IMG/VR virus record: IMGVR_UViG_3300028394_000034
From: a virus
Direction: 5' to 3' (one strand)
DNA length: 64,000 nt
This document shows positions 5,545 through 51,284 of the stretch, in pieces (the first letter of the stretch is position 1; each line of letters begins with the position of its first letter). Below the pieces are notes generated by a model that saw only the letters and a list, made by a program, of their open reading frames with translations, ran no database searches and had not been told where the DNA came from. The translations under genes and the position numbers were made by a program.

Positions 5545-5819
5545 TAGGAGCGGTGAGAATCGAACTCACACTGGATGGATTTTCTTACCACTATAGTTTT
5601 CACTACCATTTCTGTTTGTGGTCTGGACTTTATCTTAACCATAACTTTCGTTTTAGGTTCCTGCCGTCAAGTCTCTACACCTTCATAATATTTCTATTAA
5701 GCTTGGCTCGGTATTAGCAGTTAAGCTTTCACCGAATTTGACAAGTTCTACATTAAAGATTTCTCTCTAAGCACTCAAATTGTATAAGTCCATTGTCTCT
5801 GCCGTTGGACTACGCTCCC
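5545..5819 (-). tRNA. trnL: tRNA-Leu(UAA), short variable arm, interrupted by a group I intron
   Basis: 5' exon 5819-5786 GGGAGCGTAGTCCAACGGCAGAGACAATGGACTT; 3' exon 5583-5545 AAAATCCATCCAGTGTGAGTTCGATTCTCACCGCTCCTA. The spliced anticodon loop is CUUAAAA. Confidence 0.9.
5584..5785 (-). ncRNA. Group I intron (202 nt, no ORF) in the tRNA-Leu anticodon
   Basis: P1 pairs exon ACUU|A with intron UGAGU, placing a U.G pair at the splice site. P-like AAATTCGGTGAAA, R-like GTAGAGACTT and S-like AAGATAAAGTCC elements are present, and the intron ends in G. Confidence 0.88.
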
Positions 5820-32635: not shown

Positions 32636-34542
32636 TTAGGCATGATAATGCTCCTCTTCTGTGAGAGTAGCAGGCCCATTAAAATCTTCCCAATTTTCCA
32701 CTAGCACTTCTGGTGCTTCTTTTCGTATCTCTGCTTCTAAGGCATAATTAGATTCTTTATCTTTTTCATGTTCAAGATAGTCTCTTAATCTATCTTTGAT
32801 TTGCATGAAGTCTAATTCACCCAGAATCTGATCAATATACTTTCTTTGAACTTCCTTACGATTGTTCTCACTAACATATCTAGTACGCATATTACACCTC
32901 ATGGTTAAAAGTTAAAAACAACTCTTTGCCCATGATTCCACTAGTCCTGCATCTGTCTCACCACATGCTTGGCTACTGGCTTCGTTGACTATTGTATTAT
33001 ACCAGAGAGAGGTGGTGGAGACAAATACTATTTCTTATTTGGGCCGCATAAACTCGCTGACTATAGCCACCTTCGCCAAATCTATAGTATTAGGTGAGAC
33101 TAAAAGCCAAGTCCTGTATCTTCATCATCCATATAATTATCTGCTATGAAATTAGTAAAATTTTCTTGCTGAATTGGTTTCTTAATAAAAACTATTTCTT
33201 CTTCGGTATTAAAAATAATATCACAAACTATACTTCCAATACCAATAAGAAATAAGAATAAGATGCCAACTAGTATGTAATAACCTTCCATAAGATTTTT
33301 CTTTCTTGACAGACCCCCTTGGAAATGGTATATATTATGCAGGTGCGTATGATTAATAGAGTTAAGAAGTTAGAGAAGAGTATACTACAAGTAGTAGCTT
33401 CTATGATTCTAGAGTATCTACCTTAACAATATTCTCAGGACCTATCTCACCAAAAAACTCAGGGTCTTCATACATTTTAATATTTAGATAATTGCAAATC
33501 TCATTTCTGCTCAAGCATTCACAATCATCATTTGGTATGGCCAATTCCATTTGTATGGTAACAACCCGGATATTCTGATTTTTATTCATAGATATTTAGT
33601 TACTAAACCCCTGAGTTACTCCAAAGAAAATAGCGGCACAAAAGAAGATTCCAATCATAATGTTAATCCTAAGAAGAGGAAGTTGACCGCTCGCGCCATC
33701 GACCTTAGTATACCATATCGTCACATTCGACGCAAATCCTTGAGACCAAACAACTTACAATACTAACTGATCTCTCACCGCCAGTTACTATTCTTTGACT
33801 ACCTCCTTTAATTTTTTAGTAATAGTATCGAAAGTTTTATGAACAGGCCCAGTAACAGTATAGTCACTCATATAAGCTTTGATAGCATCCATTAGTTTCC
33901 ATGCTTCTTGTTTTGTAATATCTATTTGCATTAATAGTCTCCTTAAAAATTCCTAATATCAATATCCCAATTACTCTTAGCAAATCGTCTAAGAGGATGA
34001 ATAGCCTTTTCACCAATATGTAGTGAATAAAATGGCTTACTCTTATCTGATGGATATAGTTTAGCAATACTACCATCACCATGTTCGATAGTAAAACCTA
34101 GCTTCTTAAACTTCCGCATGATCTTATCAATGTTCATCTTTAGTTCTCCAGAAGGTCAGGATAATAATCAACAATCTGTTCTTCCAACATCTTATTAGTC
34201 AACCCACTCTTATTATCCACAAGCATCTGATAAGCAAAAGTATACAGAGTATTAAAGTCCATATCATCTAAAAGCCTATGGCAATAGACTGTTGTAATAT
34301 CACCCCTATTCTCATCAGTAATCTTAGAGCAACTCATTATTAGTCTCCAATACTTGTGGGTTATATTCACTAAATAACTTTTTCAACTCTTTATTAGTCA
34401 TACTAGATAATTTATTCTCAATACCCTCCCTAACAATACTCCTAAGAGTACCCATATCCATCTGATCCACAACAGATTCAGCATGTTTTGATATGAGAAA
34501 ATTCCTGGTATTATTATCTACCTTAATTTTTTCTTTCTGCAT
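32636..34542 (-). CDS. Small-ORF region including three paralogs (32636-32902, 34140-34370, 34324-34542)
   Basis: Shared pattern (I/L/V)(L/V)(D/G).(M/L)D(F/M)..(L/I)...........(S/T)N..L......P.(V/L)L. Confidence 0.6.
33943..34137 (-). CDS. Possible HicA-like small protein
   Basis: KKLGFTIEHGDGS...YSLHIG resembles the HicA fold; a weak match. Confidence 0.35.
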   Translation of the reverse strand: MNIDKIMRKFKKLGFTIEHGDGSIAKLYPSDKSKPFYSLHIGEKAIHPLRRFAKSNWDIDIRNF

Positions 34543-34902
34543 AAATATCTCCTGCCCAAAGGGGTCTGGAATTCTCGCTGACTATCGCCACGACCGCAAT
34601 TCTGAAGGATAAGCTGGTACAGAAGATAGGTCACAAATAAACTGATGATTAATCTCTTTATCACCACTTATATCAATCTGGCTGTTCATAAGTCAAATAT
34701 GATTTTAACGTAAGTCCTTACCAGCACACCACTTACGTCTCATTGTATCGTCACTTACGTCAAGTGTCTACACCCTAAGTACGAGATTCTTTGACAAACT
34801 TTCCGTAAGTCGTTGGTACCAAATAACTTACAAAAATCGCGGCGGGCCGGGTTTTCCCTAAGTGCTTTATTGATAAGGGTTTACGTCAAGTGGTCTAGGT
34901 AC

Positions 34903-34940
34903 AAAAAAAGAACCGCCACCCATTGCTGAGTGGCGGCTCC
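34903..34940 (-). terminator. Rho-independent terminator after the DUF932 gene
   Basis: GAGCCGCCAC...GTGGCGGTTC followed by T7. Confidence 0.8.
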
Positions 34941-34964
34941 CAAGTCAACCCCCATTGCGAGGGA

Positions 34965-35990
34965 TTAGAGTGCCTGAGCGAACTCCATAGCCTTCTCCAA
35001 CGCTTTCGTGTTGTCGTTGGCGTTGAGTCCGAACCACAGGCTGTCGAGACGGTTATCTTCCGTTCGACCCTTGTTGTAATTCAGATACTCGTTGTAGCCG
35101 TTGTACGCGGCCCACCAAGTTCCACGAACACCCGTCGCACTCTGCTTCGGGCCTTCGACCAGATTCAGAATCTCGTCCATAATATTACGGGTACGAGTCT
35201 TGATCTGATCGTCCGGCGTACCGTCAATGTCGAGCATCGCCTTGACATAGCGACGAACGTCGGCCTGATTGAAATTCTTGGACGCAAGGAATTTGAACTG
35301 CTCCGCAGTCGCTTCAAACTCCATGTTGATGTTGTCCATAATATCTCGCACATTTTCCAGATTGGTCTTGCTGGAACGGGTGTGACGAATACGAATCAGC
35401 TTGGAACCACTGCTCTTGCTATGGGCCATTGCCATAGTATTAGCACACACAACGCGGATCGGCGTATAGCCAACCCGAATAGCAGTCGTGCCATCGTGCG
35501 AGTTGCTGAGAAGAATAAACTTCCCAACCTCGTCACCCTTCACGATCTCGCTATTGTCGCGGTTCAGTTGGGCCAGCACCCAAACCTTCTGACCGCTGTG
35601 GAGCGAACCAGCAGTATGCAACGCACACTCGCCAGCGTCCAGAAACGGCTGGAACCAATCGAACGCTTCGCTGTTTTGCAGCGGAGTGTATCGTGGGCCG
35701 ACAACGCCCAGAATACTATCGTCGGTCTTGCGATAGGTTGCACGAGCCGGAACGGGTTGATTCGTTTCCAGCGTGATCAAATCTCGCAGACCAACTTCCC
35801 AATCCAAACCGGCGGCAGTCATCGCCTCCGAAACCGTGGGAGCCTCGTCGAGCTTGTTGCCCAAACCGTGCCACGGGGTCGCACCAACAAACATCATCTG
35901 TTCAACTGCATGAGCCATAATCATCCCTTTCGTGTTACTGTTCAATCGTTCTACTCCACTCATTCTACAGTATGTTATCGTCACTGTCAA
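34965..35990 (-). CDS. DUF932-family (TIGR03299-like) phage/plasmid protein; real start probably MAHAVE
   Basis: PWHGLG, YTPLQN, TAGSL..GQKVW, LLSNSHDG, TPIRVVCANT, IRHT and GTWWAAYNGYNEY. Confidence 0.9.
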   Translation of the reverse strand: MTVTITYCRMSGVERLNSNTKGMIMAHAVEQMMFVGATPWHGLGNKLDEAPTVSEAMTAAGLDWEVGLRDLITLETNQPVPARATYRKTDDSILGVVGPRYTPLQNSEAFDWFQPFLDAGECALHTAGSLHSGQKVWVLAQLNRDNSEIVKGDEVGKFILLSNSHDGTTAIRVGYTPIRVVCANTMAMAHSKSSGSKLIRIRHTRSSKTNLENVRDIMDNINMEFEATAEQFKFLASKNFNQADVRRYVKAMLDIDGTPDDQIKTRTRNIMDEILNLVEGPKQSATGVRGTWWAAYNGYNEYLNYNKGRTEDNRLDSLWFGLNANDNTKALEKAMEFAQAL

Positions 35991-36078
35991 GCGAAAACTT
36001 TGGAAAAATTCTTTTTGCCGTAAGTCGTTGGTGTGTAAGCACTTGCGTCAAACGCGGCCGGCCGACCTTTCCCTAAGT

Positions 36079-36618
36079 CTAATCAGGATAAGGGTTTACG
36101 TAAGGGTTTAGAATAACTGTCCCAAACTGCTTCTCAAAAAGTTTAGAATTGGAAGCATTGTAGGCACACTCCTCACCCATGTAGAAATATGCACCAATAC
36201 ACTTTGCTCGTGGAACATCATCATGAATATTATTCATAATGCGTTTGATTGTGCCGCCCGAACAAATCAGATCATCTAAAATAACATAATTAGATGGAGC
36301 AACACCTTCAATAAAAAATTCACTATATCGTCGCTCACCTTTACGAACAACAATAATATTCTTATTTAGAATCTCTGCAATCTGTGGCACTACCATAAGA
36401 CCACTCACCCCACAGCAGGCGATACTATCAAAATCTTTTTCTATCTTACGCAGAGAACAGATAGCCTTGATAATCACACTATTTCTATATTTGTGATTTA
36501 ATACTCTACTAGTATGAGCAGCACCTTGAATGATCTTACCATCTGGGGTACGACGAAAATCATCAAGCTCTTGCTGGAAAGCGTTCATAAAAGTGTGTGG
36601 CCGGATTTGAACCGACAA
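36079..36618 (-). CDS. Type I phosphoribosyltransferase
   Basis: YVILDDLICSGGT PRPP-binding motif; also IIVVRK. Confidence 0.8.
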   Translation of the reverse strand: MSVQIRPHTFMNAFQQELDDFRRTPDGKIIQGAAHTSRVLNHKYRNSVIIKAICSLRKIEKDFDSIACCGVSGLMVVPQIAEILNKNIIVVRKGERRYSEFFIEGVAPSNYVILDDLICSGGTIKRIMNNIHDDVPRAKCIGAYFYMGEECAYNASNSKLFEKQFGTVILNPYVNPYPD

Positions 36619-36915
36619 TCCCGAGAAGAAGAAAGGAATAAAGAATAGGGTCTAGTCCCACCTAGAAGCACACACAAAAATCAATCTTGTTCATCTTCAA
36701 TACTAGGATAGTAATTCCTACCATATGAAGGAACCTCATCATCTTCCTCAGAATCTTCATAACCATCCATCCAAGGTTCTTCGTCCAGACCAAGATCCTC
36801 GGTATTTTCTACCAATTCATCGTAGTCATAATTATAACCATCGTAGTGATCTTCATATCTCATAATCATTCCCTTTCTTACCTCTATTCTACACCAACAA
36901 TCAACAACTGTCAAG

Positions 36916-36988
36916 TGGGCCCTCGGGGATTTGAACCCCGAACCTAAGAGTTAAAAGCTCCTTGCTCTGCCAATTGAGCTAAAGGCCC
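36916..36988 (-). tRNA. tRNA-Lys(UUU)
   Basis: Cloverleaf; anticodon loop CTTTTAA. Confidence 0.92.
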
Positions 36989-37290
36989 ATCTAGTTATTC
37001 GTTTACGGTAATTTCCTCGTAAGAATAACTTTGGACACTCTCGGTTGTAAAATCATAGAGCTTATCGAATACATCCGACCATTCAAAATCCTCTTGCATG
37101 GATAGTTGAATGTCTGCCAGAGTTTTACCATCCTCGGTCACAATGTCGTAGATACGAAGATTCTTCATACAGTTTCCTTTCTTGTTCCAACAGTCTACCA
37201 TACCAATATCGTCCTGTCAACACCCAAAACTTTAGGATTCTCGCTGACTATTCCCACAGCTTCCAAATCCGCAGGATTAGCAGAAACAAA

Positions 37291-37362
37291 TGACCCCACG
37301 GAGAATCGAACTCCGATCTCCACCGTGAAAGGGTGGCGTACTAGCCGTTATACAATGGGGCC
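37291..37362 (-). tRNA. tRNA-Glu(UUC)
   Basis: Cloverleaf; anticodon loop CTTTCAC. Confidence 0.92.
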
Positions 37363-37400
37363 ACACTCGCAACTCAACATCAGCCTCCGATTCTTAAAAG

Positions 37401-37485
37401 CGGCTGGAACAGGATTCGAACCTGTGGAGGATTTCTCCTCGTCGGTTTAGTAAACCGGTGCATTAGACCGCTCTGCCATCCAGCC
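37401..37485 (-). tRNA. tRNA-Ser(ACU), long variable arm
   Basis: Anticodon arm CCGGT-TTACTAA-ACCGA; variable arm GAGGAGAAATCCTC; G73. Confidence 0.85.
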
Positions 37486-37489
37486 AAAA

Positions 37490-37561
37490 CTGCCCCGGTA
37501 GGATTCGAACCTACAACCTCGATGTTAACAGCATCTTGCACAACCGTTGTGCTACAGGGCA
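37490..37561 (-). tRNA. tRNA-Asn(GUU)
   Basis: U1-A72 pair; anticodon loop CTGTTAA; G73. Confidence 0.9.
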
Positions 37562-37896
37562 TCATGTATTTCTTTATGACAGTTAGAGCATACTAAAATG
37601 CACTTGTCTGCCTCTTCTTTCATTCTATCTAGTTTTAATGTATTGCCAGTGCTTCCAATCCCAAAGTCTTTCTTAGATGGGTCTAAGTGATGAAACTCTA
37701 ATGCGGCTAGACATTTGTTATATCCGCACCTCTCACACTTACCTCCTTTATATTCAACTAATAATGATTTGACTTTTCTTCTTCTTTTAGATACGGCATC
37801 TGAGCGACATTTTGTACAGCGATATGCACCACGACCCTCAAGCACATACTTGCATGAGCCGTGTGTTTTACACTGTTTTTCTATATATTTTTCCAT
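37552..37896 (-). CDS. HNH endonuclease inside the tRNA cluster
   Basis: CERCGY...LEFHHLDP...CILVCSNCHKEIH. Confidence 0.85.
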   Translation of the reverse strand: MEKYIEKQCKTHGSCKYVLEGRGAYRCTKCRSDAVSKRRRKVKSLLVEYKGGKCERCGYNKCLAALEFHHLDPSKKDFGIGSTGNTLKLDRMKEEADKCILVCSNCHKEIHDAL

Positions 37897-37937
37897 GGTA
37901 TAACTCCGGTTGTTATACCATTTAATACACCAAATAA

Positions 37938-38008
37938 TTCCGGGACTAGGATTCGAACCCAGACAAAGAGAACCAAAATCTCTGGTGCTACCGTTACACT
38001 ATCCCGGA
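37938..38008 (-). tRNA. tRNA-Gln(UUG)
   Basis: Cloverleaf; anticodon loop TTTTGGT. Confidence 0.9.
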
Positions 38009-38009
38009 G

Positions 38010-38081
38010 AGCCGACAACAGGACTTGAACCTGTAACCTACTGATTACAAATCAGTGGCTCTACCATTGAGCTATGTCGGC
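38010..38081 (-). tRNA. tRNA-Thr(UGU)
   Basis: Cloverleaf; anticodon loop TTTGTAA. Confidence 0.92.
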
Positions 38082-38912
38082 AGTCTATGTATTATAATCA
38101 ATAGTCTCCATAATCGCAAGCCCTACGCTTTTCAGCGGATCGGGTTCGCAGACGCTTGGGGCGATTGTCCATAATAGTATTGCGGTGTTCCTTGTGACCC
38201 GTAGGAACTTGCCACTGCGGCCTGACCTTGATCTTGATATGGTTGCGGCGTGGTCTGGTATCGTCGTTGTTGTGGAGCGTAATCATGCCATTGTCCGTTT
38301 TCGTGTAGGTAAAAAACTTTGTCAATATTAGGGTCGTAAGCCATCAGACAGTATTGTACCGGATAAGTTGGTTTTGTCAATACCTGTTTTTGTTGAGAGG
38401 GATGACGCAGTGGCGGAATTTTAATATCACCTTTTTGATAATCTTTTACACCAGTATACGCCAAACCAACAATCGTAATCAGAATCCCGATCCATTGTAT
38501 CATAATCTCAGTCCTTGTCAATATCCTTCTCGTTCTCATATCTATATTATCGACCAACCACCACCAAATACTTTAGAAGTTTTTTGGAATTTCTCTAAGT
38601 CCTTATGCTGCAACAACTTACGTCAAAACCGGGCGGCCCCGCTTGCCCTAAGTGCTTACGCACCAAGGGTTTGCGGCGAGTCTTATTCAATACTCCATCC
38701 TGCGTCTTTTAGAATATGGCTAGTATGCAACACACAAGTTTTACCATCAGCATTTTTATAGTCTCTATATCCACGCTCATCAAGATAGATATACTCATCT
38801 AGTGTATCATTTTCATTTGTTTCCCAGATAGCATCCATAGCAGCATATCGTGGAGCCTTATCACAAGAGTAAATTAGTTCCAGAGTTCCACACTTGATAT
38901 AGTATTTGCTCA

Positions 38913-39506
38913 TTATTGTTCCTCCCGGAACTTTTGACATAGAACACAATTACATCCCCCGTAATCATCAAACTCGACAGCATCATCAGCATCATAATCA
39001 AACTTCCCATAAATATCTTCATCCCATTCAGTAAAACTCTCAATACCAAGATCGATAACAACCGCTACCCATTTTCCCTTGCGTCGAATATAACCAAAAT
39101 TACCACTATGGGCATCATTATAGTCTAATCCGTGTTCACTCAAATCATGAACTACTTCAGAGATAGCAGTACCGTTTTTACATTCAGACCACTGAAAACA
39201 ATCACCAGAACAATCTTCATCATTACACTCTGGCATAGGCCGAGCAACTTCGGTCAAATAACCATAAAAAGTCATTTCGCCATCATGTTTACGAATAAAA
39301 CCAACATCCCCATATACCATAGGGGCCAAATCAAACTGAGCCAGATGCTTTTGAACCCGATGGGCAAACTTAGCTTCCTGCTCATTCTCAAACTCTTTGA
39401 AGCCCACACGCTTCCGGCCAATCTTTTTATCTTTGATAATATAGAAAGCGTTCTTGCTTCCTGCATCATCATACAATCCAACGTAGCTCATTTTTATTCC
39501 TTTCAA
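38913..39506 (-). CDS. Minimal protein-kinase-like protein (paralog of 4228-4782)
   Basis: VGFKEF, LAPMVY, YGYLTEVA, NDAHSGNFGY and VVIDLG. Confidence 0.6.
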   Translation of the reverse strand: MKGIKMSYVGLYDDAGSKNAFYIIKDKKIGRKRVGFKEFENEQEAKFAHRVQKHLAQFDLAPMVYGDVGFIRKHDGEMTFYGYLTEVARPMPECNDEDCSGDCFQWSECKNGTAISEVVHDLSEHGLDYNDAHSGNFGYIRRKGKWVAVVIDLGIESFTEWDEDIYGKFDYDADDAVEFDDYGGCNCVLCQKFREEQ

Positions 39507-40207
39507 TGGGCTGGAAACAAGACATTAGCTAAACCACGAACACACAAGTCACATGATATACTATCTTTGGTTCCGGTGCAAGTGATTTCTGCACGACCAC
39601 GACGGATTTCGGGGCATACCACAAACTTTGTAGCATTGAGAACAACCAGCTTGGGCAGTGCTTTTCGCCATGCTTCGGCCTTGACTTTGCTCTTAGGACG
39701 CTTGGGAGCAACTTTCATGTCACTATCGCACCATGCAAACAACTTGAAACCTTGTGCCAATGCTTCGCCCATATCATTATCGTCATGCACACTAGCATAT
39801 ACATTCATATACTTTTCCAGACTCACAAGCCGAGCATCGTAGATATGAGTATAAAACCACATATCGGGCAAAGTATTACCATCGGCCAGAATACTCTCAC
39901 AAGCCCATGTTACATTCGCAACATAGTCTAGGTCAAGTTCTCCATTGAGAAACCAGTCGCCACGTTCATGCCAGCGAATAGACTTCTCACGACGCTTTGC
40001 TTCCAGAATCATAGCACGGATTTTATTCTTCTCCGTGATAACATTAGCAAACCCGGCAGTACGAGCATTTTTATACTGATTCTCGGTCGCTTCGGCATAA
40101 CAGCCGTTACCAAGATAGTCACAATCGGGAGGACAAGTATCGCCAACCGGACGCGAAACTACAATACAACCCTTACCCAACTTATCATTACCATCAGCAG
40201 TTTTCAT
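39503..40207 (-). CDS. GP88-like protein with a radical-SAM-like Cys cluster
   Basis: GNDKLG, TCPPDC...GCYA, IRWHERGDW and WFYTH. Confidence 0.6.
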   Translation of the reverse strand: MKTADGNDKLGKGCIVVSRPVGDTCPPDCDYLGNGCYAEATENQYKNARTAGFANVITEKNKIRAMILEAKRREKSIRWHERGDWFLNGELDLDYVANVTWACESILADGNTLPDMWFYTHIYDARLVSLEKYMNVYASVHDDNDMGEALAQGFKLFAWCDSDMKVAPKRPKSKVKAEAWRKALPKLVVLNATKFVVCPEIRRGRAEITCTGTKDSISCDLCVRGLANVLFPAH

Positions 40208-40510
40208 GTTCTTCTCCTGTGTCTACCGATTCTACACTATAGTATCGGCATAGTCAAGCGAAAAACTTGGAAAAATTATTCTTGATGCAAGTCGTTGGTA
40301 GATAAGGACTTACGACGAACCGGGGCGGCCGGACTTGTCCTAAGTGCTTATGCAGTAAGGGTTTATGACAAATAGCCCCAAGAGGAATCGAACCTCTAAT
40401 AATTCTTTAGAAGAGAATTGTTATGTCCATTTAACTATGGGGCCGTCAATACCGCAAGCCCCCACAGCGTCCTGTGGAGGCTCGCAGTCATTATAACTCC
40501 ATAGAGTCGA

Positions 40511-43500
40511 TCACGCAACCGTCTCGACTTCCTTCTCTACCTTACCATCATGGGCATCACCCGCAGCTTCCGCAGTCACACCCGTAACCCTAGCTCGCCA
40601 CACCTTATACCCCTGCTCACTAAAAGCCTTGATACCAGCGGGCTTGACATTCGCATGAACATCACCAGGAAGCTCATCATTCAACGCCTTGGTCAGCGTA
40701 GCCACAACATCAGCCGAATCAATCTCGTCGCCAACAATATCAACCGCAAAGCTAAACTTCTTCATCTTACGTTCTCCAAAAAGTGTTACAGTTACCAATC
40801 GTTCTAGTATCAGTATACGTTACTGTTACCCACTTGTCAAGTCCGTCGTGATGGTTTCTAGTGTTGGCATCATCGCGGAGTCTTGTCTCGTGATACTCCC
40901 ATTCTACAGTATAGTATCGTCATTGTCAAGCAGGAACTTGAGTGAGCCTCAAAGATTTTTGATTTTGTCCTAAGTTCTTTCCAGATAAGGACTTACATCA
41001 AATTCGGCGGGCCGGCCTCTCCCTAAGTTCTTTAGGGACAAGGCTTTAGGTCATGAGAGAAAACCCTCACAACCCAAGGTGGTCAACTCACGCAGCAGTG
41101 CCTCTGCCGCTTCCGGCGTTTTCAGAGTCATGCTGTGCTTAACGCCTGCTGGTGCTGGATGCCACTTGTCGTACTTCCAGCCACCAACCAGATAATCACT
41201 CCAATCCTTGGCTTCCTTCAGACCCCATCCGGTGTGGAGGCGAATAGCCTTGATGCAAGGGATGCGATTGTCCAGATTCATACCACCCGTGATCGTCACA
41301 ACACGTCGCTGGTTCACACCCAGTGCCACCTCCAACGCACACACAATCTTGTCGAACATATCCAGACTGCAACCGTTTGCAATCATGTTCAACGACTCAC
41401 GGACGCTCAGTTCGATCTTGATCATAAATTCCAAAACTTTCTGTATACTTAGGGTCTATCTCGTAAATACCGTCAAAATTTCCGTCACGTTCTTCCAGAA
41501 TATGTACCTGTCGCCCATCGGTAACTAAGGTATCATACTCACTGTTATCCCAAACAAACTCACCACCATCACTCTCCCTACGCCAATGTACGTCTTTGAT
41601 TGGGTTATAATACAACTTCTCAAGATTGTCAATAGGTAAAGAGGGATAAAAATCCTTGCGAAGCATAACCTCCTCGCATTGTACCCAACCACTAACATTC
41701 TTTTTCTGTTTCTTATTGACCCATTTTGCCCTAGCTACCTTATTTACCAGTTTGCAACCACGCATCTCCAACTGGTATTCTGTAGGGTCTACATAAAATT
41801 GGTCAACCCTTTTCTTACCTTGCATCACGTTTACCTGCCATTTTTTATAATTAGGCCCGTTTAGTAGATGAAATCGTACTTCGGCGTGTTTTTCTACCGT
41901 TTTCATTTACCTCTCCAAAGAACAACACAATGCGTAATCTCATCTTCAGTAGGACCGAAAGACATAGAATGTCGTCCATTATACCAGCTAATCTTCTCTT
42001 GTCCATCCCAATTATCATTTAGACGAACAGCAGTATTAGGTCTAATTTCAACATTATCATATCCACACTCATAACCCGGCACCAGTACAAGCATATCTTG
42101 GGGTAGCTTGTTAAGTTCTTCGATCAATTCAGCAACAGTCATCATATTCCCTTTCGTGTTACCACTATCTTACACTACTATTATCGACAAGTCAAGAGGA
42201 AATCTTGAAAAAATATGGCTAATCGTAAAGTCTTTAGAGATAAGGACTTACGGCAGATTTGGCCGCCCGCCCTTGAGCTAAGTTCTTTAGCACCAAGGAC
42301 TTATGTCAACCACTAGGATAATCGGGTGGAACTGGTCGGCTAGGCTTTTCTGGCTTCTTAGTAATACCTTCCTCATAAGGCATCCACCACGGAGCATCCA
42401 TACGGTCTACAAGACCAATAGATTCATGGCAAATTAAAATATGAGGACTAACAGGATCGTCAGCATGATATTCATAATGACCAAGCCACACACCAATATG
42501 TTGCCCGTAATAGAATATCTCTTGATAATCTTTTGGTTGCTTCTCAAAAAAACTAATCCATTCCATTATTTATATACCTCTATTTGCCACCGATCATACT
42601 TCAATTCAGCCGTTACACTCATGCCCAACTTAACCAGTTCAGCCACAATTTCGGCCAAACGCTCAATCTCATTAATATTTAAGTAGATCATTATATCCTC
42701 AATGTCATCTTTTCCCACACTTCGATCAAATCTTTAGCAGTTATACCATGCTCCTCTGCTAAAGTCAATGCTTCATCCCTATTAGGTTTACACATCACCA
42801 TCATGGCGCTTTTCAAAACTTTCAGAATCTTAATAATCGCTTCATCCTTGCTCATAGAAAGCCTCCCTCTCTGCATATACTTCTGCCACTGCAATTCTAA
42901 CTTCTATCCAATCTTCTAGAGTATCAAAACTCTCAAGGCTTTCGGCCAACTCACTATCCTCATAGCATTCCACTATGTATTGGCCCCAACTCGTATAATT
43001 ATCTTGGGCGAGTTGTTTTGCTTCAGCAATCAGTTCTTTTGTAGCAATCATTATCTTTCTCCTTTGTATTGTATACCGGGTGTTAATGGATCGACTTATC
43101 GAAGCGACGGGACTTGAACCCGCAACACCGCCACATATAGTGTGGAACTCTACCAATTGAGTTACGCCCGACGATAGTTTTACGAATAATGTCCGGTATC
43201 ACGCATTATCCAACCCAGCCAGTAAACTTGGTTTCTATCCGACCCCTGTTTGTAAACGTGGTGAGGACGCGATCCCCCATAGATTGGTACTACTATCCAA
43301 CGTACAGCCCCGTTGGCAACCAACTATAGACATTATCCATAGCCGGTTTATCGTAGTAGGCTATCCCAACCTAGTCCAAGGCATGGACCCACGAGTTTTG
43401 TATTGTAAAGCAGATAGGGTTGAGCCATACTCGACAGCCATTTAACCGTGGCTACTTTGATATCATTCTGCCAGCGGCCGCTATCTGCTTATGTGCTAAG

Positions 43501-46500
43501 TATACATCTATTATCGTCACTTGTCAAGAGCTATCTATAGGAATTCCAAAAATTTTTTAGAGTTGATGTAACCCTATGATACACAAGCACTTACGTCAAA
43601 TTCGGCCGCCCCGCCTTACCCTAAGTTCTTTAACTATAAGGGTTTATGTCAAGGGTCCCATGTTCTGGCTGACTATACCCACTCAGCCCAAATCCGTAGG
43701 ATTAGGCGGGACAAACTTTAGAGATTCGCTCAATGAGCAAATTATTTCCATAAAGTTTCTCAGCCTGACGCAAAGCATGGTAGGTACTGTACGCTTGAAC
43801 ATACCCAACAATCTTGCTGCCCTTCATTACCATGTAGGTATCGGTACTCATTCGTCCTCCACTAGTGCAGGAAACATTCTATCCCAAGACTCACTATCAA
43901 TTCCCGTTTTGAGAATCTCACGATCATCAGCATTGAGATACGGGAAAGCAGTTTGAATCAACTCTCCATTGACCCAACGCTGGGCATCTTCAAGCTTAGT
44001 GACTATGGAAAACTCACGAAGGCCAGTAGACAACCCACTGAACTCAATCATATCCACACCGTCCACAGTCTTGATCGTTCGCGTTGTCCGATTTGTCAAA
44101 GCATATGGCGTAAACAGCATCTTTTTCTCCTTTAGGTTCCTCGTATTGTACACTACTAATATCGGCGTGTCAAGAGAAAAACTTTGAGAAAAATTATGTG
44201 ACGTAAAGTGTTGATGAATAAGGACTTACATCAAACGCGGCCCGCCGGCCTCGCCCTAAGTGCTTTCGCAGCAACGACTTAGGGGTTGGTCAGCTTTTAG
44301 GCAGTACCTGCTATCTTTTAGAGCAGGCTAGCGACTCCACTCTTGAACAGAACCTTAGCAAGCAAAGGCTTTCGGCAGTTGCTCACACGCTCTGCATAAA
44401 AGTTACGAATCTTACCGTCAGGAGTCTGGCAAGTCACCAGATTCGCAGTACGAATGAACTCAGGATCACCGATACGATATCGGCTCTTGCGATTCAACCT
44501 CGCAATCTGGTCAGCAGTCAACGTCTGCTTGCCAACAACCTTAGCAAGAAAACGCTCATGCGTTCCATGCAACGGCTGCTGATAAACAAAGTTGTAAACC
44601 TGACCATCCTTAGCATTCGCCAAGCTGGCCTTGCTTCCACCGTAAACGGAATAGAAGACAAACCCTACAACAGCACAAGTAACCGCAAACAGAATACCAG
44701 TCAACACAACAAAATCACTCATAAGAAACCCTTTCAAATTGAAAACCAATCTAACATCCATGCCACAAGTCTACACTATATATCGACCGTTGTCAAGCAG
44801 AAACTTTAGAAAAATTTTCTTCCCAGTATTCTGCCATTTCAGCCATGTTGATACCGCTATCGTTCCAAGCAACTCCATCCGAAGTTTCATATCGGATTCT
44901 GGTCTTTTCAAACATTTCACGAAGAACAATTCTGAAATGACTGAAACATTCGCATTGTTTAGCGATACCGTACAACATTTCATCATTACTGATCCACAAG
45001 CAAACATTCCACGTTTGATAGTTTGCGTAACCGTTATAGCTTCCGTCCGGACTCATGCTTCACTCTCTCTTTCTTGTATACGTCATTCTACTATACAATA
45101 TCGTCTAATGCAAGGGCTAAACTTGAATCTTACAAGATTGTAAGGATCGACGTAAAGCGTTGATACATAAGTACTTACGACGAAGCCGGCCCGCCGCGTC
45201 GGCCCTAAGTGCTTGAACACAAAGGGTTTACGACGAGTGATAGTTTACTCAAAATCAACAAAGATAATTTGAGCATAACCGCGAGGCTTGACGGTATATC
45301 CGTCTCCGTAATCGCACGTATCAGCCTTGACCGCTGTCATACCAGCCAGAGCCTTAGCCTTACGAACAACGCTACGCTGGCTAGCATTCTTCTTGGGGAT
45401 AAACTCGTAACGATTCACCCAGCCATAGTTAGCTTCGCCACCAAACGTATCCGTATGAGTCACAACACACTTCATTTTGCCAATTCCTTTGCTTTCATGG
45501 TTTCAAAATACAACTGTTCCAACAACTTAACTCTACTTACTGCACGACCAGCTTCACGATTCATGAGTATAACAGCTTTTTCGTGTGCTGTCAATACCTT
45601 CTTTTTCGTTTTCATTTCAGTCTCCGTAAGTATCAGAATCGTTCATGTAAATTAATCGACCAACTCGGTTAGAACAATTATATTCCTTATTCCAACCAGC
45701 TTCAATTTCTGGAGACTTTTCAGGCAAGCCTACAGACTTACGATATTCAATCCATTTTTCTTCATTAGTCATTTCTGCTCTTCATCTTTCTTTAATGGGC
45801 CACGATAGCCTTTAAATCTTTTCAACTCACCATAGTAATTACGACCAGCAGAACCGTGTTGAGTCTTTTTCTTTTTAGGCTTTTCGTACATAACCTTCAA
45901 CAAAAATTCATAGTGTAAATCCATTTTATACTCCTAACCAAACATCTCATATTCTTCATCAGTCAATGCTACCTCATCTGGACGATAACAATTGTTGCCA
46001 TACAGATCACGATTCTTAGGACGCTTTTCCCATTCATCCATGAATCGGTTATACTCTTCGATACGCTTTTCTTCTTCACTTTTCATCATTCACTTTTTCT
46101 TTCTCTAATACCTTATATCGACAAGTATAGCAGACAATCTTTAGCTGTCAAACAGAAAGTTTTCTTACAATATCGTAAGGTTGGCGTAAAGTGTTGGCAT
46201 ATAACGACTTATGTCAAATTCGGCCCGCCGCGCCGGCCCTAAGTGCTTATGCACAAAGGGTTTACGGCGAATTTTCAATCGTCGTATGGGCCATCATCAT
46301 TATAATCAACAAATCCGACAGCTTCATCAGCGTGGAAATCTTCCTGGTAATCTAAATCTTCCCCGTAATAGCCGTAGGACTCATCCATTCCATGTCCTGC
46401 GGAAGCCAACGCAGATTCAGCATCACCATCCATACTATCATCAAACGAATCATCCTCAACCTCATAATCGGAAAGGTCAGTGTCCATGCACTCACCGTAG

Positions 46501-49500
46501 AAATCTTCAACATCGTCGTATTCGTAGCTCATGGTCAATCCTTCACAATGGTAGTAATGTAGAGCAGGCCAACATAGGACGCAACGAACGCAATCGCACT
46601 AAGCATCAATATACTCCTCTGGAATGAAATCGTCAACAGCACCCACCACTTCTGCCCAATCCCAAAAATTCACTTCCACGCTGGGATCGTCAATCGGCTC
46701 GACCATCGGTTCCACAATCCCCTTTTCGGCCATGTCGTTCAGAATGTCATTGATCTCGTCGAAGTTCAGCATGATTCTGTTTCCTATGGGTTTCCTTGTG
46801 ATGCTTCGATTATACACTTATCATCGACATATTGCAAGCCCCCCATAAAATTTCTTTCCTTATATTTTTGTAAGGTTCGCCGGCTATCGTTTGGCACGGC
46901 ATTTGCTGTTGGGGGGTTTTCGTAAAGTGTTGCAGGATAAGCACTTATGGCTCGCTGGGCCGGCCGAACTCGACGTAAGTCCTTATGAGTTAAGGAGATA
47001 CGTCAAGCCACACCCAAGAACAAAAGCTGTACCTAATAGAATATAATCACTAATTTTCATCATTTTCCTCCATATACATGATATGTGACATACTAGCAGA
47101 GAGTAAGATACCGACAATATAACCAAAAGCAACGCTAATAAAATCAAATTGATACATCCCTGTATCTCCAGTGTTATTGGGTCAATCCCCATATCCTACC
47201 CAGAACTCATCACCATTTTCATCTTTCATAAGAGTAAAGCCCCTAGACTTCATCCTCTCATATTCACCAAATCTCTGCCAGACTTCACAAATCGTTTCCA
47301 TACACTTGAGCATCATCCCCATAACCCACACAAACGGATATTGAATCATTCTCATAACCCTCTCCTATTCTGCACCATTCTACACTATTGTTATCGACCC
47401 GTCAAGGGCCCCGACTTTAGGCTGACTATACCCACCCTACCCAAATCCGTAGGATTAGCTCGGACAGTTATCTGTCCTTACTTGACAGACTCCATGTGTT
47501 CAAACGTGATGCACTTGTCCAGATAGATCGACCGATACCCCTGTTCGGCCTTGACCGTCAGGAGAACACGATCTCCAAACCCACGCACATTGACAACTTC
47601 ACCATTGACGATTTCACCGTTGTCATAATCCGCAAAAACAAAGTCACCGATTTTCATTGTTCTACCCTTTTCCTTTTCTCTTACTTGTTATATCGACATT
47701 ATACCAAAGGATATTTAGCTTGCAAGCGAAAAGTTTCCTTACAATTCCGTAAGGTTCGCGGAGAAAGTTTGGCACACCATTTGCTATAGAGACTCGACGT
47801 AAAGTGTTGGCACATAAGCACTTAGAGCAAATTCGGCCCGCAAAATTCGTCGTAAGTGCTTTAGCAGCAAGGGTTTACGACAAGTTTTTGAGTTTGCGCC
47901 TGTACACCCGTTTACCATCCACCCAAATGGGGAGGTATAGCTTAGGGTACAACTGAACATATGTATTCTTTACTAGACGCTCAGTCTCTAGTGTAACGTC
48001 GTACACTAGTATACAGTTGTTCATTCTTCCCCCTTGAAGCTGAACGGGCTGATTTCGAGATGAGCAACAACACCGTATTGCTTGGTCAGTTCCTCGACAC
48101 GTTCACGGCTACCCGGCTTACCAACCGGAACGATCATGGTATCCTCGCTACCGATCATCCGCGGGTCAACCTTTTCCATCTTGCTCTTGCCCATATTCTT
48201 CAATGCTGTCCGATTGAACTTCAGAACCTTTTCCACTTGGATCATCTCACCGTCGATGTCTTTCACTTCGGTAGGAATCGCCATACCAAGAAAGCACAGA
48301 CGGGCTTGACGCTTGGCAGCTTGAATGATCGGGAACTTGGTAGCCATGTTTCTTATCCTCTAGGGTTATCGTTCTCTTGTGAGTGTATTATACCAAACTG
48401 ATTTTCAATGTCCAGCAAAATCTTTCCTTACATTTTCGTAAGGTTTCTCGTCTCTCACACAGGAGTCGGATTCGACCGGTAGTATTTTGCCCACAGATCA
48501 TCGATCACGAACTGGACAACGCGATCATGTGAACCACGGCAGACATAGTAGCCCATGTGGATATCGAACAGAGCAAACGATCCATCCTCTTTCGGATGAA
48601 ACGTAAACCCACACTTGTAGGCGTAGGCGTTGATCTTACCCTTGACAGTCGAACTTTTCGGAGGCTTTCTCATTTTCATTCCTTCTTTCTTCTCTTGTTC
48701 TTATATCGACATTATACCATACCCTCTTTAGGTTGCAAGCAAAATCTTTCCTTACAAAGTCGTAAGGTTTGCCGGCCGTATTGGCACAGCATTTGCTATA
48801 TGCAATTATCATGCCAAACTTTTTTGGCACAGCATTTGCGTTACCGCTTGACGTAAAGTGTTGGTATATAAGCACTTATGGCAAATTCGGCCCCGAAAAT
48901 TCGTCGTAAGTCCTTTGGTATCAAGGGTTTACGTCGAATCTTTTGTACACTACTATACTACTGTATAGTCATCCCCTCGATATAGGGGAATACCTTACCA
49001 TTTGTATGTACGTTCCACTCTCCCTTTACTTGTCGAACATATCCCGGAATATACTGATTTATCCTATCCTTAGTCGTTGGGGTATACCATCCCCCTGTTC
49101 GTAGGGTATAGGTATTATCCTCATGGATTGTGACCACATATGTACTGTGGAGCATTACCCCTACGCTACCATCTGGCATAATCTCAGCATATGTATTGTT
49201 ACCAATCTTTCGGGATTGCCGGCCCGTCTTACCATGTACCATCTTTACTGCTTCAGTGTGTGTCATTTTGCTCACCAGCTTTCGCTGATCATCCCTAGTA
49301 ATTGTTGAAGAAACTGTAGAATCTCTTTTATGTTATATGTGGCATAATCCACATAACCATCGGGCAGATACCTAGACATAATTTTCTCAGTCGTTGTCGT
49401 GAAGGATGGAATGGATAGCGTTACCTACCTCGTGGGCAGTGTAAGACATGAAACCAGCAAAACTAATCAGGGCAAACAGCTGAACGTATTCGATAGGCGT

Positions 49501-51284
49501 AATCATTTAGGAGTCTCTCTTTCTTGTTTGTCTATTATACAGTATCGGCTATTCTCTTGTCAACCACTTAGAAATTCCAAATGCTTTTTGAATTATAGGG
49601 GAGCAGATCGTCAATCGGGAAGCCCGTAGCTTCTGCAACAATCTTTCGGGCTACCATCCAATCGGCGGCGGATGCTTGACCGATAAACTTGTGATCACCA
49701 TAGCTGAAGAAGTAAAACGTTTTCATTTTCTTTTTTCCTTTTCTCTTGTTTCTCTATTATACTCTATCGGTTATTGTCTTGTCAACTCTTGAACCTTGCA
49801 ATGTCGTAAGGTTCAGGCAAAATCCTCTTCACCAAAGAAATCATCGAGCCATTGGTCATCAGTCTCGATATGATCCTCAGTATCCCCCATAATGGGGTCC
49901 CAACCTTCCCCATCGTCAAGGCCCGGAATGTAGTCGGCTTCCATGCTATCGTCTGCAATGATCGTGCAATGCTCACCACACTGGGAGCAAATCTCATGAT
50001 CGACATTGCTTTCAGCATTGCAGCAATCGGAAACGTATAAGGTATTCTTTTCCATTTTCTTATCCTCTTTTCTTTCTTGTTCTCTTTTCTCTTATATCGA
50101 CATTATACAGTAGATTCTGAAACATTCAAGCAAAATCCAAAAAGATTTATGTCAAGAGATTTTGACAAAACTTTTCATCATTTTCTATACGATTGGCATA
50201 CCATTTGCTCTATGCAATTATCGTGCCAAACTTTTTTGGCATGAAATTTGCTGTGTGTTAAGATAGGTAAGATTGGGCCAAAAACGTGTCGTAAGTCATT
50301 GCAGCATAAGCACTTACGACGAGCCGGCCGCCGCGAATTTGACGTAAGTCCTTTATCCATAAGGGTTTGCATCAAGCCGGCCAGTATACAAGCGTATACC
50401 CTACAGAATAGAGTATAATTCCCCTACGATCACAAAGAACCTATACGCTAGAACAGTTAGCAGTATACAAGCGATCAGGTCTACAATTATCATGATACCA
50501 ATTCCTCTTTTGCTTGAAGTGATTCCACAAGAGCCCAACATTCATTGAACGTAATATGTCGGGCGATTACCACCCCACCATACCATACCTCATACCGATC
50601 CCCTGTCCGATTGGAAGTATTCCAGTAGATCATTTTCTTTTGCATGGCTTGTATCCTCTTTTCCGTATTGTATACGTTGTCCGTTTAGGTGTCAAGCGGT
50701 AGCCAAATAATTGCAAGAAACACACTTGTCGAGATACATTGAACGATATCCAACATTCTCGATTTTCAACGTGAACAGGAGTCGATACCCTTCCATATAC
50801 TTGACGCTCACGATTTCCCCAACAAACTTTTCACCCGTAGCATATTCGACCGAGACGTTGTATCCGATTTCCATTTTCATTTCCTTTTCTTTATCGTTCG
50901 TTTCTTGTTTCTGTATTATACTGATCGGCTTTTTTGTTGTCAATACCTTAGAAAATATTTTTACCGATAGATTCCATCGTTGATAACGTATCCGTCATTA
51001 TCCACTTCGATGAACTCTCCTTCATCACCCATCGGAAAGAAATATTCGATCATGTTTCGATTATTCTTCGCTTCGTCAAGCAGTTCTCCACCGATTGCAT
51101 ATTCGGTACCAACCAGAGTATCCAGTTCAATCGAATTGTTGTAGAGCACTTCGTTCAGTTCTTCCCGATTCATGATGATTTTCGTATTCTTCATTTTCTT
51201 ATCCTTTTCTTTCCTTGTTTTCTCTTGTGCTTTCATTATACAGTATTTATCGACCACTTCAATAGGAAAAATAAAAAAATCCAA
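40511..51284 (-). CDS. Early-region modules of small hypothetical proteins, each behind its own promoter
   Basis: Minus-strand ORFs at 40511, 41397, 41903, 42306, 42691, 42842, 43848, 44318, 44793, 45245, 46275, 46599, 48021, 48455, 48958, 49813, 50692 and 50961. Confidence 0.6.
41051..41434 (-). CDS. Ribosomal protein bL12 (L7/L12) C-terminal-domain-like protein
   Basis: RIPCIKAIRLHTGWGLKEAKDW matches the bL12 pattern KI.VIK.VR..TGLGLKEAK; also AEALLRELTTLG. Confidence 0.7.
   Translation of the reverse strand: MEFMIKIELSVRESLNMIANGCSLDMFDKIVCALEVALGVNQRRVVTITGGMNLDNRIPCIKAIRLHTGWGLKEAKDWSDYLVGGWKYDKWHPAPAGVKHSMTLKTPEAAEALLRELTTLGCEGFLS
43099..43171 (-). tRNA. Degenerate tRNA-like element; identity cannot be assigned
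   Basis: D-arm ACTC-AATTGGTA-GAGT and T-arm GCGGG-TTCAAGT-CCCGT are intact. The anticodon arm CCACA-CTATA-TGTGG lacks U33 and a 7-nt loop, and the acceptor stem is bulged. Confidence 0.6.
43172..43492 (-). ncRNA. Candidate ~320-nt structured non-coding RNA
   Basis: No ORF in the track; consensus sigma70 promoter directly upstream; many hairpins including a 10-bp AAGCAGATAG/CTATCTGCTT stem. Confidence 0.55.
45128..49811. promoter_or_regulatory. 7 copies of the palindrome CCTTAC-N6-GTAAGG upstream of -35 boxes
   Basis: Starts at 45128, 46163, 46858, 47737, 48426, 48750 and 49794. Confidence 0.75.

What the first reader, a model, noticed from the sequence alone, without database searches (positions are those of the whole stretch)
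43099..43527. Promoter-driven ~320-nt structured RNA candidate fused to a degenerate tRNA
Seen: TTGACA-17-TATACT (43527-43499) points into an ORF-free stretch. Its minus-strand helices include AAGCAGATAG/CTATCTGCTT (10 bp, enclosing TAGCCA/TGGCTG and GTCGAG/CTCAAC), GTCCA/TGGAC, TAGG/CCTA, CTATGGA/TCTATAG, CCAACG/CGTTGG within TTGGT/ACCAA, GGGGA/TCCTC, CGTGG/CCACG and GATAATG/CATTATT. GGATA recurs five times. The stretch runs directly into a tRNA-like element with a broken anticodon arm. Established: large phage ncRNAs such as GOLLD and ROOL often lie next to tRNAs. Inference: a novel ncRNA whose 3' end may be defined by RNase P cleavage of the tRNA-like element; the GGA repeats might titrate a CsrA-type protein (speculative).
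Basis: partly seen in the sequence, partly recalled or inferred. Interest (0 to 1): 0.7.

Follow-up and report, generated by a model that had tools for sequence, protein, structure and literature searches.

The report
Phage operon of small structured RNAs
This gene-free stretch of an uncultured 200-kb lake phage is not one large RNA but a promoter-driven string of three separately folding small RNAs: one that probably pairs with itself, one tRNA-shaped with a knot where the anticodon arm should be, and one clasped around a non-decoding tRNA look-alike. They belong to unnamed RNA families shared and reshuffled among roughly a hundred related phages, and their function is unknown.

Summary
The observation largely holds. 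There is a near-consensus early promoter (43527-43499, minus strand), no conserved ORF, and a tRNA-like element with a non-canonical anticodon loop.

The interpretation needs revising. The stretch (43490-43073) is three independent modules joined by ACAAUACAA-type linkers:
- **A (43490-43408):** a covarying closing stem around a nearly invariant ~62-nt core. Its loop hexamer is always a palindrome.
- **B (43395-43256):** a four-way junction shaped like a tRNA, with a long arm and a covarying pseudoknot.
- **E/F (43241-43073):** a three-way junction whose hairpin loop pairs with a tail lying beyond the embedded tRNA-like domain F (43171-43099).

All three have covariation support. G·U pairs outnumber A·C pairs 173 to 20 on the promoter strand.

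Relatives shuffle, duplicate, insert or drop modules. In five relatives A abuts a canonical tRNA-Lys.

Nothing matches Rfam apart from the tRNA model on F. The CsrA idea is not supported.

The best reading is a tRNA-operon-like precursor of stable early small RNAs. Processing and function are inferred, not shown.

This scan has met the same families before on other phage genomes.

The parts
43499..43527 (-). Early sigma-70-type promoter: TTGACA, 17-nt spacer carrying a CGATAAT tag, TATACT. Predicted start near 43492.
   Evidence: 11 of 12 match. Conserved in relatives. Belongs to a co-oriented promoter family in the genome. The transcription start is inferred.
43408..43490 (-). Module A: closing stem (43490-43481 with 43417-43408) around a nearly invariant ~62-nt core. 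A 17-nt loop carries the palindrome GAUAUC (43464-43459).
   Evidence: Model R2 gives 74 matches, 53 distinct. 98% of cells are paired against at most 45% when partners are slid, and all 6 closing-stem pairs show compensatory changes. The loop hexamer is GAUAUC, GACGUC or AACGUU, all palindromes. Single copy in the genome.
43396..43407 (-). Linker 1, containing ACAAUACAA (43406-43398).
   Evidence: The same linker recurs between modules in relatives.
43256..43395 (-). Module B, a four-way junction. P1 43393-43389 with 43261-43257. P1a hairpin 43388-43374. Long-range P2 43373-43366 with 43287-43280. Pseudoknot 43364-43359 with 43309-43304. Variable hairpin 43348-43318. P5 43316-43297. P6 43277-43263.
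   Evidence: Model R1 gives 77 matches, 58 distinct. 93.3% of cells are paired against at most 45% when slid, and 12 pairs show compensatory changes. The pseudoknot strands co-vary: AUAGCC/GGCUAU, AUAACC/GGUUAU, AUAAGCC/GGCUUAU, GUAAC/GUUAC. With filters off, R1's best weak hits elsewhere are true tRNAs.
43242..43255 (-). Linker 2 (UUUACAAACA-type), the point where relatives carry extra modules.
   Evidence: insertions of 160-540 nt at this point in relatives.
43172..43241 (-). Module E, 5' part, a three-way junction. P1 GAUAG 43239-43235 with CUAUC 43177-43173. Hairpin 1 43233-43212. Hairpin 2 43210-43185, with loop AUACCGG at 43199-43193.
   Evidence: Alignment A6: 98% of cells paired against at most 46% when slid. 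Hairpin 2 has 3 compensatory pairs.
43099..43171 (-). Domain F, a non-decoding tRNA-like domain. Acceptor stem of 7 pairs with one bulge, canonical D arm and T arm, and an anticodon stem closing a 5-nt loop.
   Evidence: Rfam tRNA 33.9 bits; ARAGORN negative. Acceptor stem has 4 and T stem 3 compensatory pairs. Relatives carry other non-canonical caps: a GAGA tetraloop, a 6-nt loop, or a mini form lacking the D arm.
43073..43098 (-). Tail of module E. CCGGUAU (43079-43073) is the pseudoknot partner of the hairpin-2 loop, lying beyond F.
   Evidence: The partner lies 92-95 nt downstream when F is present and 5-6 nt downstream when F is absent, where it co-varies (AGUACCAC/GUGGUACU, AGUACCGA/UCGGUACU). 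A fourth variant, UACCAAG/CUUGGUA, was read by eye in L006.
43049..43072 (-). Linker 3 (ACAAUACAA 43072-43064), a ribosome-binding site (GGAG at 43062-43059) and the ATG (43051-43049) of a 69-aa early ORF (43051-42842).
   Evidence: No promoter or terminator lies between F and the ORF.

Best explanation
An early sigma-70-type promoter drives one precursor transcript that carries three separately folding small RNAs and then runs into small early genes.

A is an ~83-nt RNA with a nearly invariant core. Its exposed palindromic loop probably lets two copies pair. B is a ~140-nt tRNA-shaped four-way junction in which the anticodon arm is replaced by a long helix carrying a pseudoknotted cargo domain. 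E/F is a ~170-nt three-way junction whose hairpin loop pairs with a tail beyond an embedded, non-decoding tRNA-like domain.

Shown here: the three structures, their independence as modules, their strand, the lack of coding potential, and their spread among related phages.

Inferred: the precursor is cut like a tRNA operon. RNase P would cut at the tRNA-like junctions, and endo- or exonucleases would act in the A/C-rich ACAAUACAA linkers. The tRNA shapes would serve as processing and stability scaffolds. The released RNAs would act in trans early in infection, most likely by binding or decoying a host or phage protein. The molecular target is unknown.
For: **Modularity**
- blastn splits the stretch into three blocks. 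Relatives insert 160-540 nt between blocks, duplicate B or drop E/F.
- A also stands alone under its own promoter.

**Structure**
- B: 93.3% of cells paired, 12 compensatory pairs, 0 of 500 shuffles reach the observed score, plus pseudoknot covariation.
- A: 98% paired, all 6 closing-stem pairs compensatory.
- E/F: 98% paired, 10 compensatory pairs, and the pseudoknot co-varies between forms with and without F.

**Strand and coding**
- G·U 173 against A·C 20 on the promoter strand.
- No conserved frame.

**tRNA link**
- F passes the Rfam tRNA threshold.
- The B model's best non-self hits are true tRNAs, in this window and in T4.
- A abuts tRNA-Lys(UUU) in five relatives.
- The phage's own tRNAs lack an encoded CCA, so they already depend on host 3' processing and CCA addition.

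**Self-pairing of A:** three different loop hexamers, all palindromic.

**Independent transcription unit:** in some relatives the array ends at a fresh promoter.
Against: - Transcript ends, processing and stability are therefore untested.
- The overall fold energy is not better than shuffled sequence (z = -1.11).
- In this window no terminator or promoter separates the array from the downstream ORF, so a cis role cannot be excluded.
- The cores of A and of the E pseudoknot are invariant within their types, so part of the model rests on conservation rather than covariation.
- The homologue sets were gathered partly with sequence patterns, which limits the variation that could be seen in B's P2 helix and in A's core.
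- No partner protein was found. TROVE/Ro60, CCA-adding enzyme and RtcB are absent from the genome.
Confidence: 0.75

Rival explanations
1. A cis-acting structured 5' leader. The folded modules would protect the downstream early mRNA from 5'-end-dependent decay, or tune its translation, and would never act as free RNAs.
For: No terminator or promoter lies between F and the ORF at 43051. The same ACAAUACAA linker sits directly before the ribosome-binding site.
Against: Downstream genes differ between relatives while the modules stay. In several relatives the array ends at a new promoter, or A stands alone followed by no gene in its unit. An invariant 62-nt core, a palindromic loop and tRNA shapes are not needed for a simple protective leader.
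Confidence: 0.13
2. One large multi-domain RNA of about 420 nt, in the manner of GOLLD or ROOL, with a tRNA embedded.
For: One promoter and contiguous structured domains. From general knowledge, GOLLD and ROOL lie near tRNAs and GOLLD can contain one.
Against: No Rfam match to GOLLD, ROOL or any other large RNA. No long-range pairing between modules was seen. Modules are shuffled, duplicated, deleted and used alone. Every module is closed by its own terminal stem.
Confidence: 0.07
3. A decaying tRNA gene cluster: pseudogene remnants with no function.
For: F resembles a tRNA with a spoiled anticodon loop, B is cloverleaf-like, and the phage has many tRNAs.
Against: Compensatory changes keep the stems of F, B, A and E. 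A has an invariant core across 53 distinct copies. The pseudoknots co-vary. The non-canonical caps on F's anticodon arm are themselves stable hairpins, for example a GAGA tetraloop.
Confidence: 0.03
4. A DNA-level element (protein-binding sites, origin or packaging signal) or an overlooked small protein gene.
For: The palindromic hexamer in A could be a dimer-binding site.
Against: G·U 173 against A·C 20 shows that pairing is selected on one strand only. The hexamer changes sequence while staying palindromic. No frame is conserved.
Confidence: 0.02

Closest known systems
Phage T4 small stable RNAs RNAC and RNAD (species 1 and 2 RNAs) of the tRNA gene cluster
   Same: Small non-coding RNAs of 119-139 nt, encoded with phage tRNAs and of unknown function (PMC9697503). 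RNAC ends in a tRNA-type T arm. In relatives of this phage, module A sits directly against tRNA-Lys.
   Different: No detectable homology: models R1 and R2 score at most 5.9 bits on rnaC and rnaD. PMC9697503 classes the T4 RNAs as late; here the promoter is of the early-region type. Here the RNAs form a reshufflable multi-family array with a common linker.
Canonical tRNA (Rfam RF00005)
   Same: F has acceptor, D and T arms and passes the Rfam threshold. B has the same four-way junction layout, and its model picks out true tRNAs as best weak hits.
   Different: F has a 5-nt anticodon loop (in relatives 4-, 6- or 8-nt) and a bulged acceptor stem, and ARAGORN rejects it. B has no T-loop or D-loop signature and no anticodon arm.
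tmRNA, and engineered 'tRNA scaffold' RNAs in which the anticodon arm is replaced by a cargo RNA
   Same: The topology of B, in order: acceptor-like stem, small hairpin, long helix carrying a pseudoknotted domain, T-arm-like hairpin, acceptor 3' strand. The comparison rests on general knowledge of tmRNA and of the tRNA-scaffold expression method.
   Different: No tag reading frame and no Rfam tmRNA match at B. The phage has a separate true tmRNA at 12331-12683. No alanine-identity G·U pair and no encoded CCA.
GOLLD and ROOL large phage-associated RNAs
   Same: Phage-borne, structured, of unknown function and found near tRNAs.
   Different: No Rfam match. Here there are several small autonomous modules rather than one 400-800-nt RNA.
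Kissing-loop dimerisation sites such as the HIV-1 DIS
   Same: Module A shows a 6-nt self-complementary loop sequence that changes while keeping its palindromy.
   Different: A phage small RNA, not a retroviral genome. Dimerisation is inferred only.
CsrB/RsmZ-type protein sponges
   Same: A repeated GGA-containing motif within one RNA region.
   Different: Only 2 of the 5 GGAUA sites are conserved, and those lie in helices, not hairpin loops.

Membership tests
tRNA (RF00005), for domain F | Cloverleaf covariance-model score above the gathering threshold | tested here: met
   33.9 bits against 29. Relatives score 36.8-37.8 bits.
tRNA (RF00005), for domain F | Seven-nucleotide anticodon loop with U33 and a readable anticodon | tested here: not met
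   CCACA/UGUGG closes a 5-nt loop. The alternative, a 4-bp stem with a 7-nt loop, has C at position 33. Relatives carry a GAGA tetraloop, a 6-nt loop or an 8-nt loop. ARAGORN is negative in the window.
tRNA (RF00005), for domain F | Acceptor and T stems kept by compensatory change; canonical T loop | tested here: met
   4 compensatory pairs in the acceptor stem and 3 in the T stem; the T loop is UUCAAGU or UUCGAAU.
T4 RNAC/RNAD | Sequence and structure homology | tested here: not met
   R1 and R2 with filters off on the T4 tRNA region score at most 5.9 bits on rnaC and rnaD.
T4 RNAC/RNAD | Stable small RNA processed from a tRNA-cluster precursor | not testable with these tools
   No RNA data. 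The context is only suggestive: A abuts tRNA-Lys in five relatives.
GOLLD / ROOL | Match to the Rfam models; a single large RNA | tested here: not met
   No match at gathering score or at E up to 10. The modules are autonomous.
CsrB/RsmZ-like sponge | Multiple conserved GGA motifs exposed in hairpin loops | tested here: not met
   Site conservation is 44/58, 2/58, 22/58, 13/13 and 5/13. The conserved sites are helix strands.
Y RNA / YrlA | Rfam match and a Ro60 (TROVE) partner gene | tested here: not met
   No Rfam match. No TROVE domain in the complete genome.
tmRNA, for module B | Rfam tmRNA match and a tag reading frame | tested here: not met
   The only tmRNA match is at 12331-12683. No frame is conserved in B.

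The most novel reading that the evidence does not exclude
These phages carry a reshufflable toolkit of natural 'tRNA-scaffolded' RNAs. Cargo domains (pseudoknots, a self-pairing core) would be mounted on tRNA-like frames so that host tRNA enzymes cut them out and stabilise them. The freed RNAs would form RNA-only or RNA-protein assemblies that disarm a host function, for example a tRNA-directed defence or a processing enzyme, in the first minutes of infection.
Probability: 0.2. Interest if true: 0.8.

Novelty: new variant of a known kind. Interest (0 to 1): 0.6.

Why it matters
Small stable RNAs next to phage tRNA genes have been known in T4 for decades, and a 2022 T4 study still calls their functions unknown (PMC9697503). 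This case offers a much richer system:
- several unnamed RNA families with clear covariation;
- tRNA-shaped frames carrying pseudoknotted cargo;
- a probable self-pairing RNA;
- a pseudoknot clasped around a non-decoding tRNA look-alike;
- all exchanged as cassettes, with a common linker, among roughly a hundred large lake phages.

This gives defined RNAs and precise mutations for testing what such phage RNAs do. If the tRNA frames do recruit host processing, it would be a natural counterpart of the engineered tRNA scaffold used to express RNAs.

Tried and rejected
- **Cultured phage relatives:** blastn of the region and tblastn of a large structural-region protein against 50,697 phage records found nothing.
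- **Thermodynamic fold of the whole stretch:** z = -1.11, not informative.
- **A target for A's invariant 17-nt loop in the phage genome:** no complementary site within 4 mismatches, apart from A's own locus read on the opposite strand.
- **Partner proteins:** no TROVE/Ro60, CCA-adding enzyme or RtcB in the complete genome.
- **Extra copies:** models R1 and R2 each find only this one copy in the genome. Modules seen in relatives (D and others) are absent here by blastn.
- **Elbow-like contact in B:** the P1a loop (AUGC) and the P6 loop (GCAU or GCGU) are complementary but do not co-vary, so this is left as speculation.
- **Cellular homologues of A's core:** only two MAG contigs, both phage-like.
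- **Literature:** no paper describing these families was found. The supplement of the 10,006-candidate viral RNA survey (PMC10690425) is not held, so overlap with that catalogue could not be checked.
- **CsrA sponge reading:** rejected.
Full report
**Setting.** The window is the minus strand of a complete 199,884-bp phage genome with direct terminal repeats from IMG/VR. It has no relatives among 50,697 deposited phage genomes. The finding lies in a GC-richer block (41-45% GC against 31-37% elsewhere). That block is packed with small minus-strand ORFs, nine tRNAs and near-consensus promoters.

**The observation.**
- The promoter (TTGACA 43527-43522, 17-nt spacer, TATACT 43504-43499) scores 11 of 12. 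It is conserved in relatives. It belongs to a co-oriented promoter family with a CGATAA/CGATAC tag.
- Downstream there are only short, unconserved ORFs.
- Rfam finds nothing except a tRNA match at 43099-43170, 33.9 bits against a threshold of 29. ARAGORN rejects it, because the anticodon stem closes a 5-nt loop.
- The minimum-energy fold of the whole stretch is no better than shuffled sequence (z = -1.11). The case for structure therefore rests on comparison with homologues.

**Relatives and modularity.**
- The upstream 101-aa ORF and the downstream 69-aa ORF brought in about 25 related loci from 30-240-kb uncultured phage contigs.
- blastn splits the stretch into three blocks. Relatives carry 160-540 nt of extra sequence between the second and third block, duplicate the second, or lack the third.
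- Reading the arrays shows a string of self-closed units separated by ACAAUACAA-like linkers. The same linker precedes the ribosome-binding site of the next gene.
- This genome holds three units, which I call A, B and E/F. Relatives hold several more, including a near-ubiquitous ~150-170-nt unit (D). By blastn these are absent here.
- Rfam finds only tRNA in five relatives' arrays.

**Module B (43395-43256).**
- RNAalifold proposed a closing stem, a long-range helix CUAGRUUGG/CCAAUCUA and a 3' hairpin.
- A covariance model (R1) was used together with a pattern scan of IMG/VR. This gave 77 matches, 58 of them distinct.
- On these, 93.3% of cells pair, against at most 45% when partners are slid. 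Twelve pairs show compensatory changes, and none of 500 shuffles reaches the observed score.
- The strand just after the 5' half of the long helix pairs with the loop of hairpin P5. The two co-vary, including a matched insertion: AUAGCC/GGCUAU, AUAACC/GGUUAU, AUAAGCC/GGCUUAU and GUAAC/GUUAC.
- P5 itself switches between CCAACG/CGUUGG and CAGUGC/GCACUG.
- The layout is a four-way junction like a tRNA, with the anticodon arm replaced by a long helix carrying a pseudoknotted domain.
- As an objective check, R1 run without filters gives its best weak full-length hits on true tRNAs. In 12 kb of this window, 6 of the 8 tRNAs are among the top 13 hits. In T4 the hits are tRNA-Leu, tRNA-Gly, tRNA-Gln and RNAC. 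These scores are individually insignificant, so 'tRNA-shaped' describes form, not family membership.

**Module A (43490-43408).**
- Twenty-two homologues aligned with 81% mean column identity and a nearly invariant ~62-nt core.
- A 29-nt core pattern occurs in 68 IMG/VR contigs. It also occurs in two lake MAG contigs that look like mis-binned phage DNA.
- Model R2 gave 74 matches, 53 distinct. 98% of cells pair, and all six closing-stem pairs show compensatory changes.
- The inner helices never vary, so their exact pairing is unresolved.
- The 17-nt loop carries GAUAUC. When the hexamer was left free in a scan, the only variants were GACGUC and AACGUU, and all three are perfect palindromes. 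That pattern fits loop-loop pairing of two copies better than a fixed protein site.
- In five relatives the 3' strand of A's stem runs straight into a canonical tRNA-Lys(UUU). There, RNase P cleavage of the tRNA would also make A's 3' end.

**Module E/F (43241-43073).**
- E is a three-way junction closed by GAUAG/CUAUC (both strands invariant), with two hairpins.
- The loop of the second hairpin (AUACCGG, 43199-43193) is complementary to CCGGUAU (43079-43073), which lies beyond the tRNA-like domain.
- In relatives that lack the tRNA-like domain, the partner sits 5-6 nt after the closing stem and co-varies: AGUACCAC/GUGGUACU and AGUACCGA/UCGGUACU. A further variant, UACCAAG/CUUGGUA, was read by eye in L006. 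F is therefore an insertion inside E's pseudoknot.
- On 13 distinct E/F units, 98% of cells pair against at most 46% when slid. There are compensatory changes in E's second hairpin (3 pairs), F's acceptor stem (4) and F's T stem (3).
- F's anticodon arm is always a stable hairpin with a non-decoding cap: a 5-nt loop here, and a GAGA tetraloop, a 6-nt loop or a mini form without a D arm elsewhere.
- F is not a close copy of any of the phage's nine tRNAs. It is a conserved tRNA-like domain, not a decaying gene.

**RNA, not DNA or protein.**
- Across the three alignments, G·U pairs outnumber A·C pairs 173 to 20 on the promoter strand.
- No reading frame stays open across homologues of B or E/F, and module lengths fall in all classes mod 3.

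**GGATA and CsrA.** Five copies are real, but the chance that some 5-mer recurs this often is 0.06. Site conservation is 44/58, 2/58, 22/58, 13/13 and 5/13. The conserved sites are helix strands rather than exposed loops. The sponge idea is not supported.

**Mechanism.**
- Shown: one promoter, three autonomous covarying RNA folds on the transcribed strand, common linkers, and no terminator before the next gene.
- Inferred: tRNA-operon-style processing. The grounds are the tRNA-like shapes of B and F, the A/tRNA-Lys junction in relatives, and the phage's own tRNAs lacking an encoded CCA, which makes them depend on host 3' maturation.
- In some relatives the array ends at a fresh promoter. This argues for free RNA products rather than a mere leader.
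- Function remains open. No Ro60, CCA-adding enzyme or RtcB gene is present, and no target for A's loop exists in the phage genome.

**Comparison with known systems.** The nearest precedent is T4 RNAC and RNAD: small stable RNAs next to the T4 tRNA genes that a 2022 study still calls RNAs of unknown function (PMC9697503). My models find no homology to them. A 2023 survey predicted 10,006 structured RNA candidates in IMG/VR and RNA-virus data, some of them tRNA-like (PMC10690425). Its tables are not held, so overlap could not be checked.

**Earlier notes of this scan.** After forming my reading I looked up earlier notes. The same families were met on at least five other phage genomes, with concordant conclusions: a string of separately folding RNAs, the ACAAUACAA linker, one RNA wrapping a tRNA look-alike, one probably self-pairing, and T4 RNAC/RNAD as nearest precedent. 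One note reports the RNAs in lake RNA samples, which I could not test.

Noticed in passing
window 43650-43715 (minus strand): A small conserved element lies just after the upstream 49-aa ORF: an AAUCC-UAC-GGAUU hairpin followed by a GCUGA...UCAGC hairpin. The same element follows stand-alone copies of module A in relatives (L017, L116, L117, L133, L138). It may be the dispersed motif flagged in earlier notes e1-5800985 and e1-5800976, and it could be a remnant of the 3' half of tRNA-Lys.
   Followed up: partly
L130:12232-12399, L131:4644-4813, L148:3764-3923, L115:3453-3614, L066:13881-14048: In these relatives module A runs directly into a canonical tRNA-Lys(UUU), with tRNA-Thr, Gln, Asn and others following in four of the five loci.
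   Followed up: yes
relatives, e.g. L016:4146-4298, L005:4702-4868, L013:2228-2399: A ~150-170-nt module (CCAGUAAYCG...CGCUGG) is present in nearly all related arrays but absent from this genome. Further modules were seen but not analysed: a ~70-nt hairpin unit, a ~100-nt tRNA-like unit, a ~105-nt unit closed by CCGGUAU/AUACCG, and a tRNA with a large insert in the anticodon region.
   Followed up: no
window 12331-12683 and 5602-5795 (minus strand): Rfam finds a full-length tmRNA (73.5 bits) that ARAGORN missed, and a group I intron (58.9 bits).
   Followed up: no
window 34000-50000: GC content steps up to 41-45% in the early cassette block, against 31-37% in the rest of the window.
   Followed up: no
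window tRNAs (12890-40444): None of the nine ARAGORN-called tRNA genes encodes the 3' CCA, so the phage relies on host CCA addition. No CCA-adding enzyme gene is present in the genome.
   Followed up: partly
L114 (RFNS01000242.1) and L115 (JBILVZ010000050.1): Contigs carrying module A are binned into an Alphaproteobacteria MAG (Lake Lanier) and a Methylococcaceae MAG (Lake Mendota); L115 also carries B. They look like phage DNA, and the binning is at best a weak host hint.
   Followed up: no
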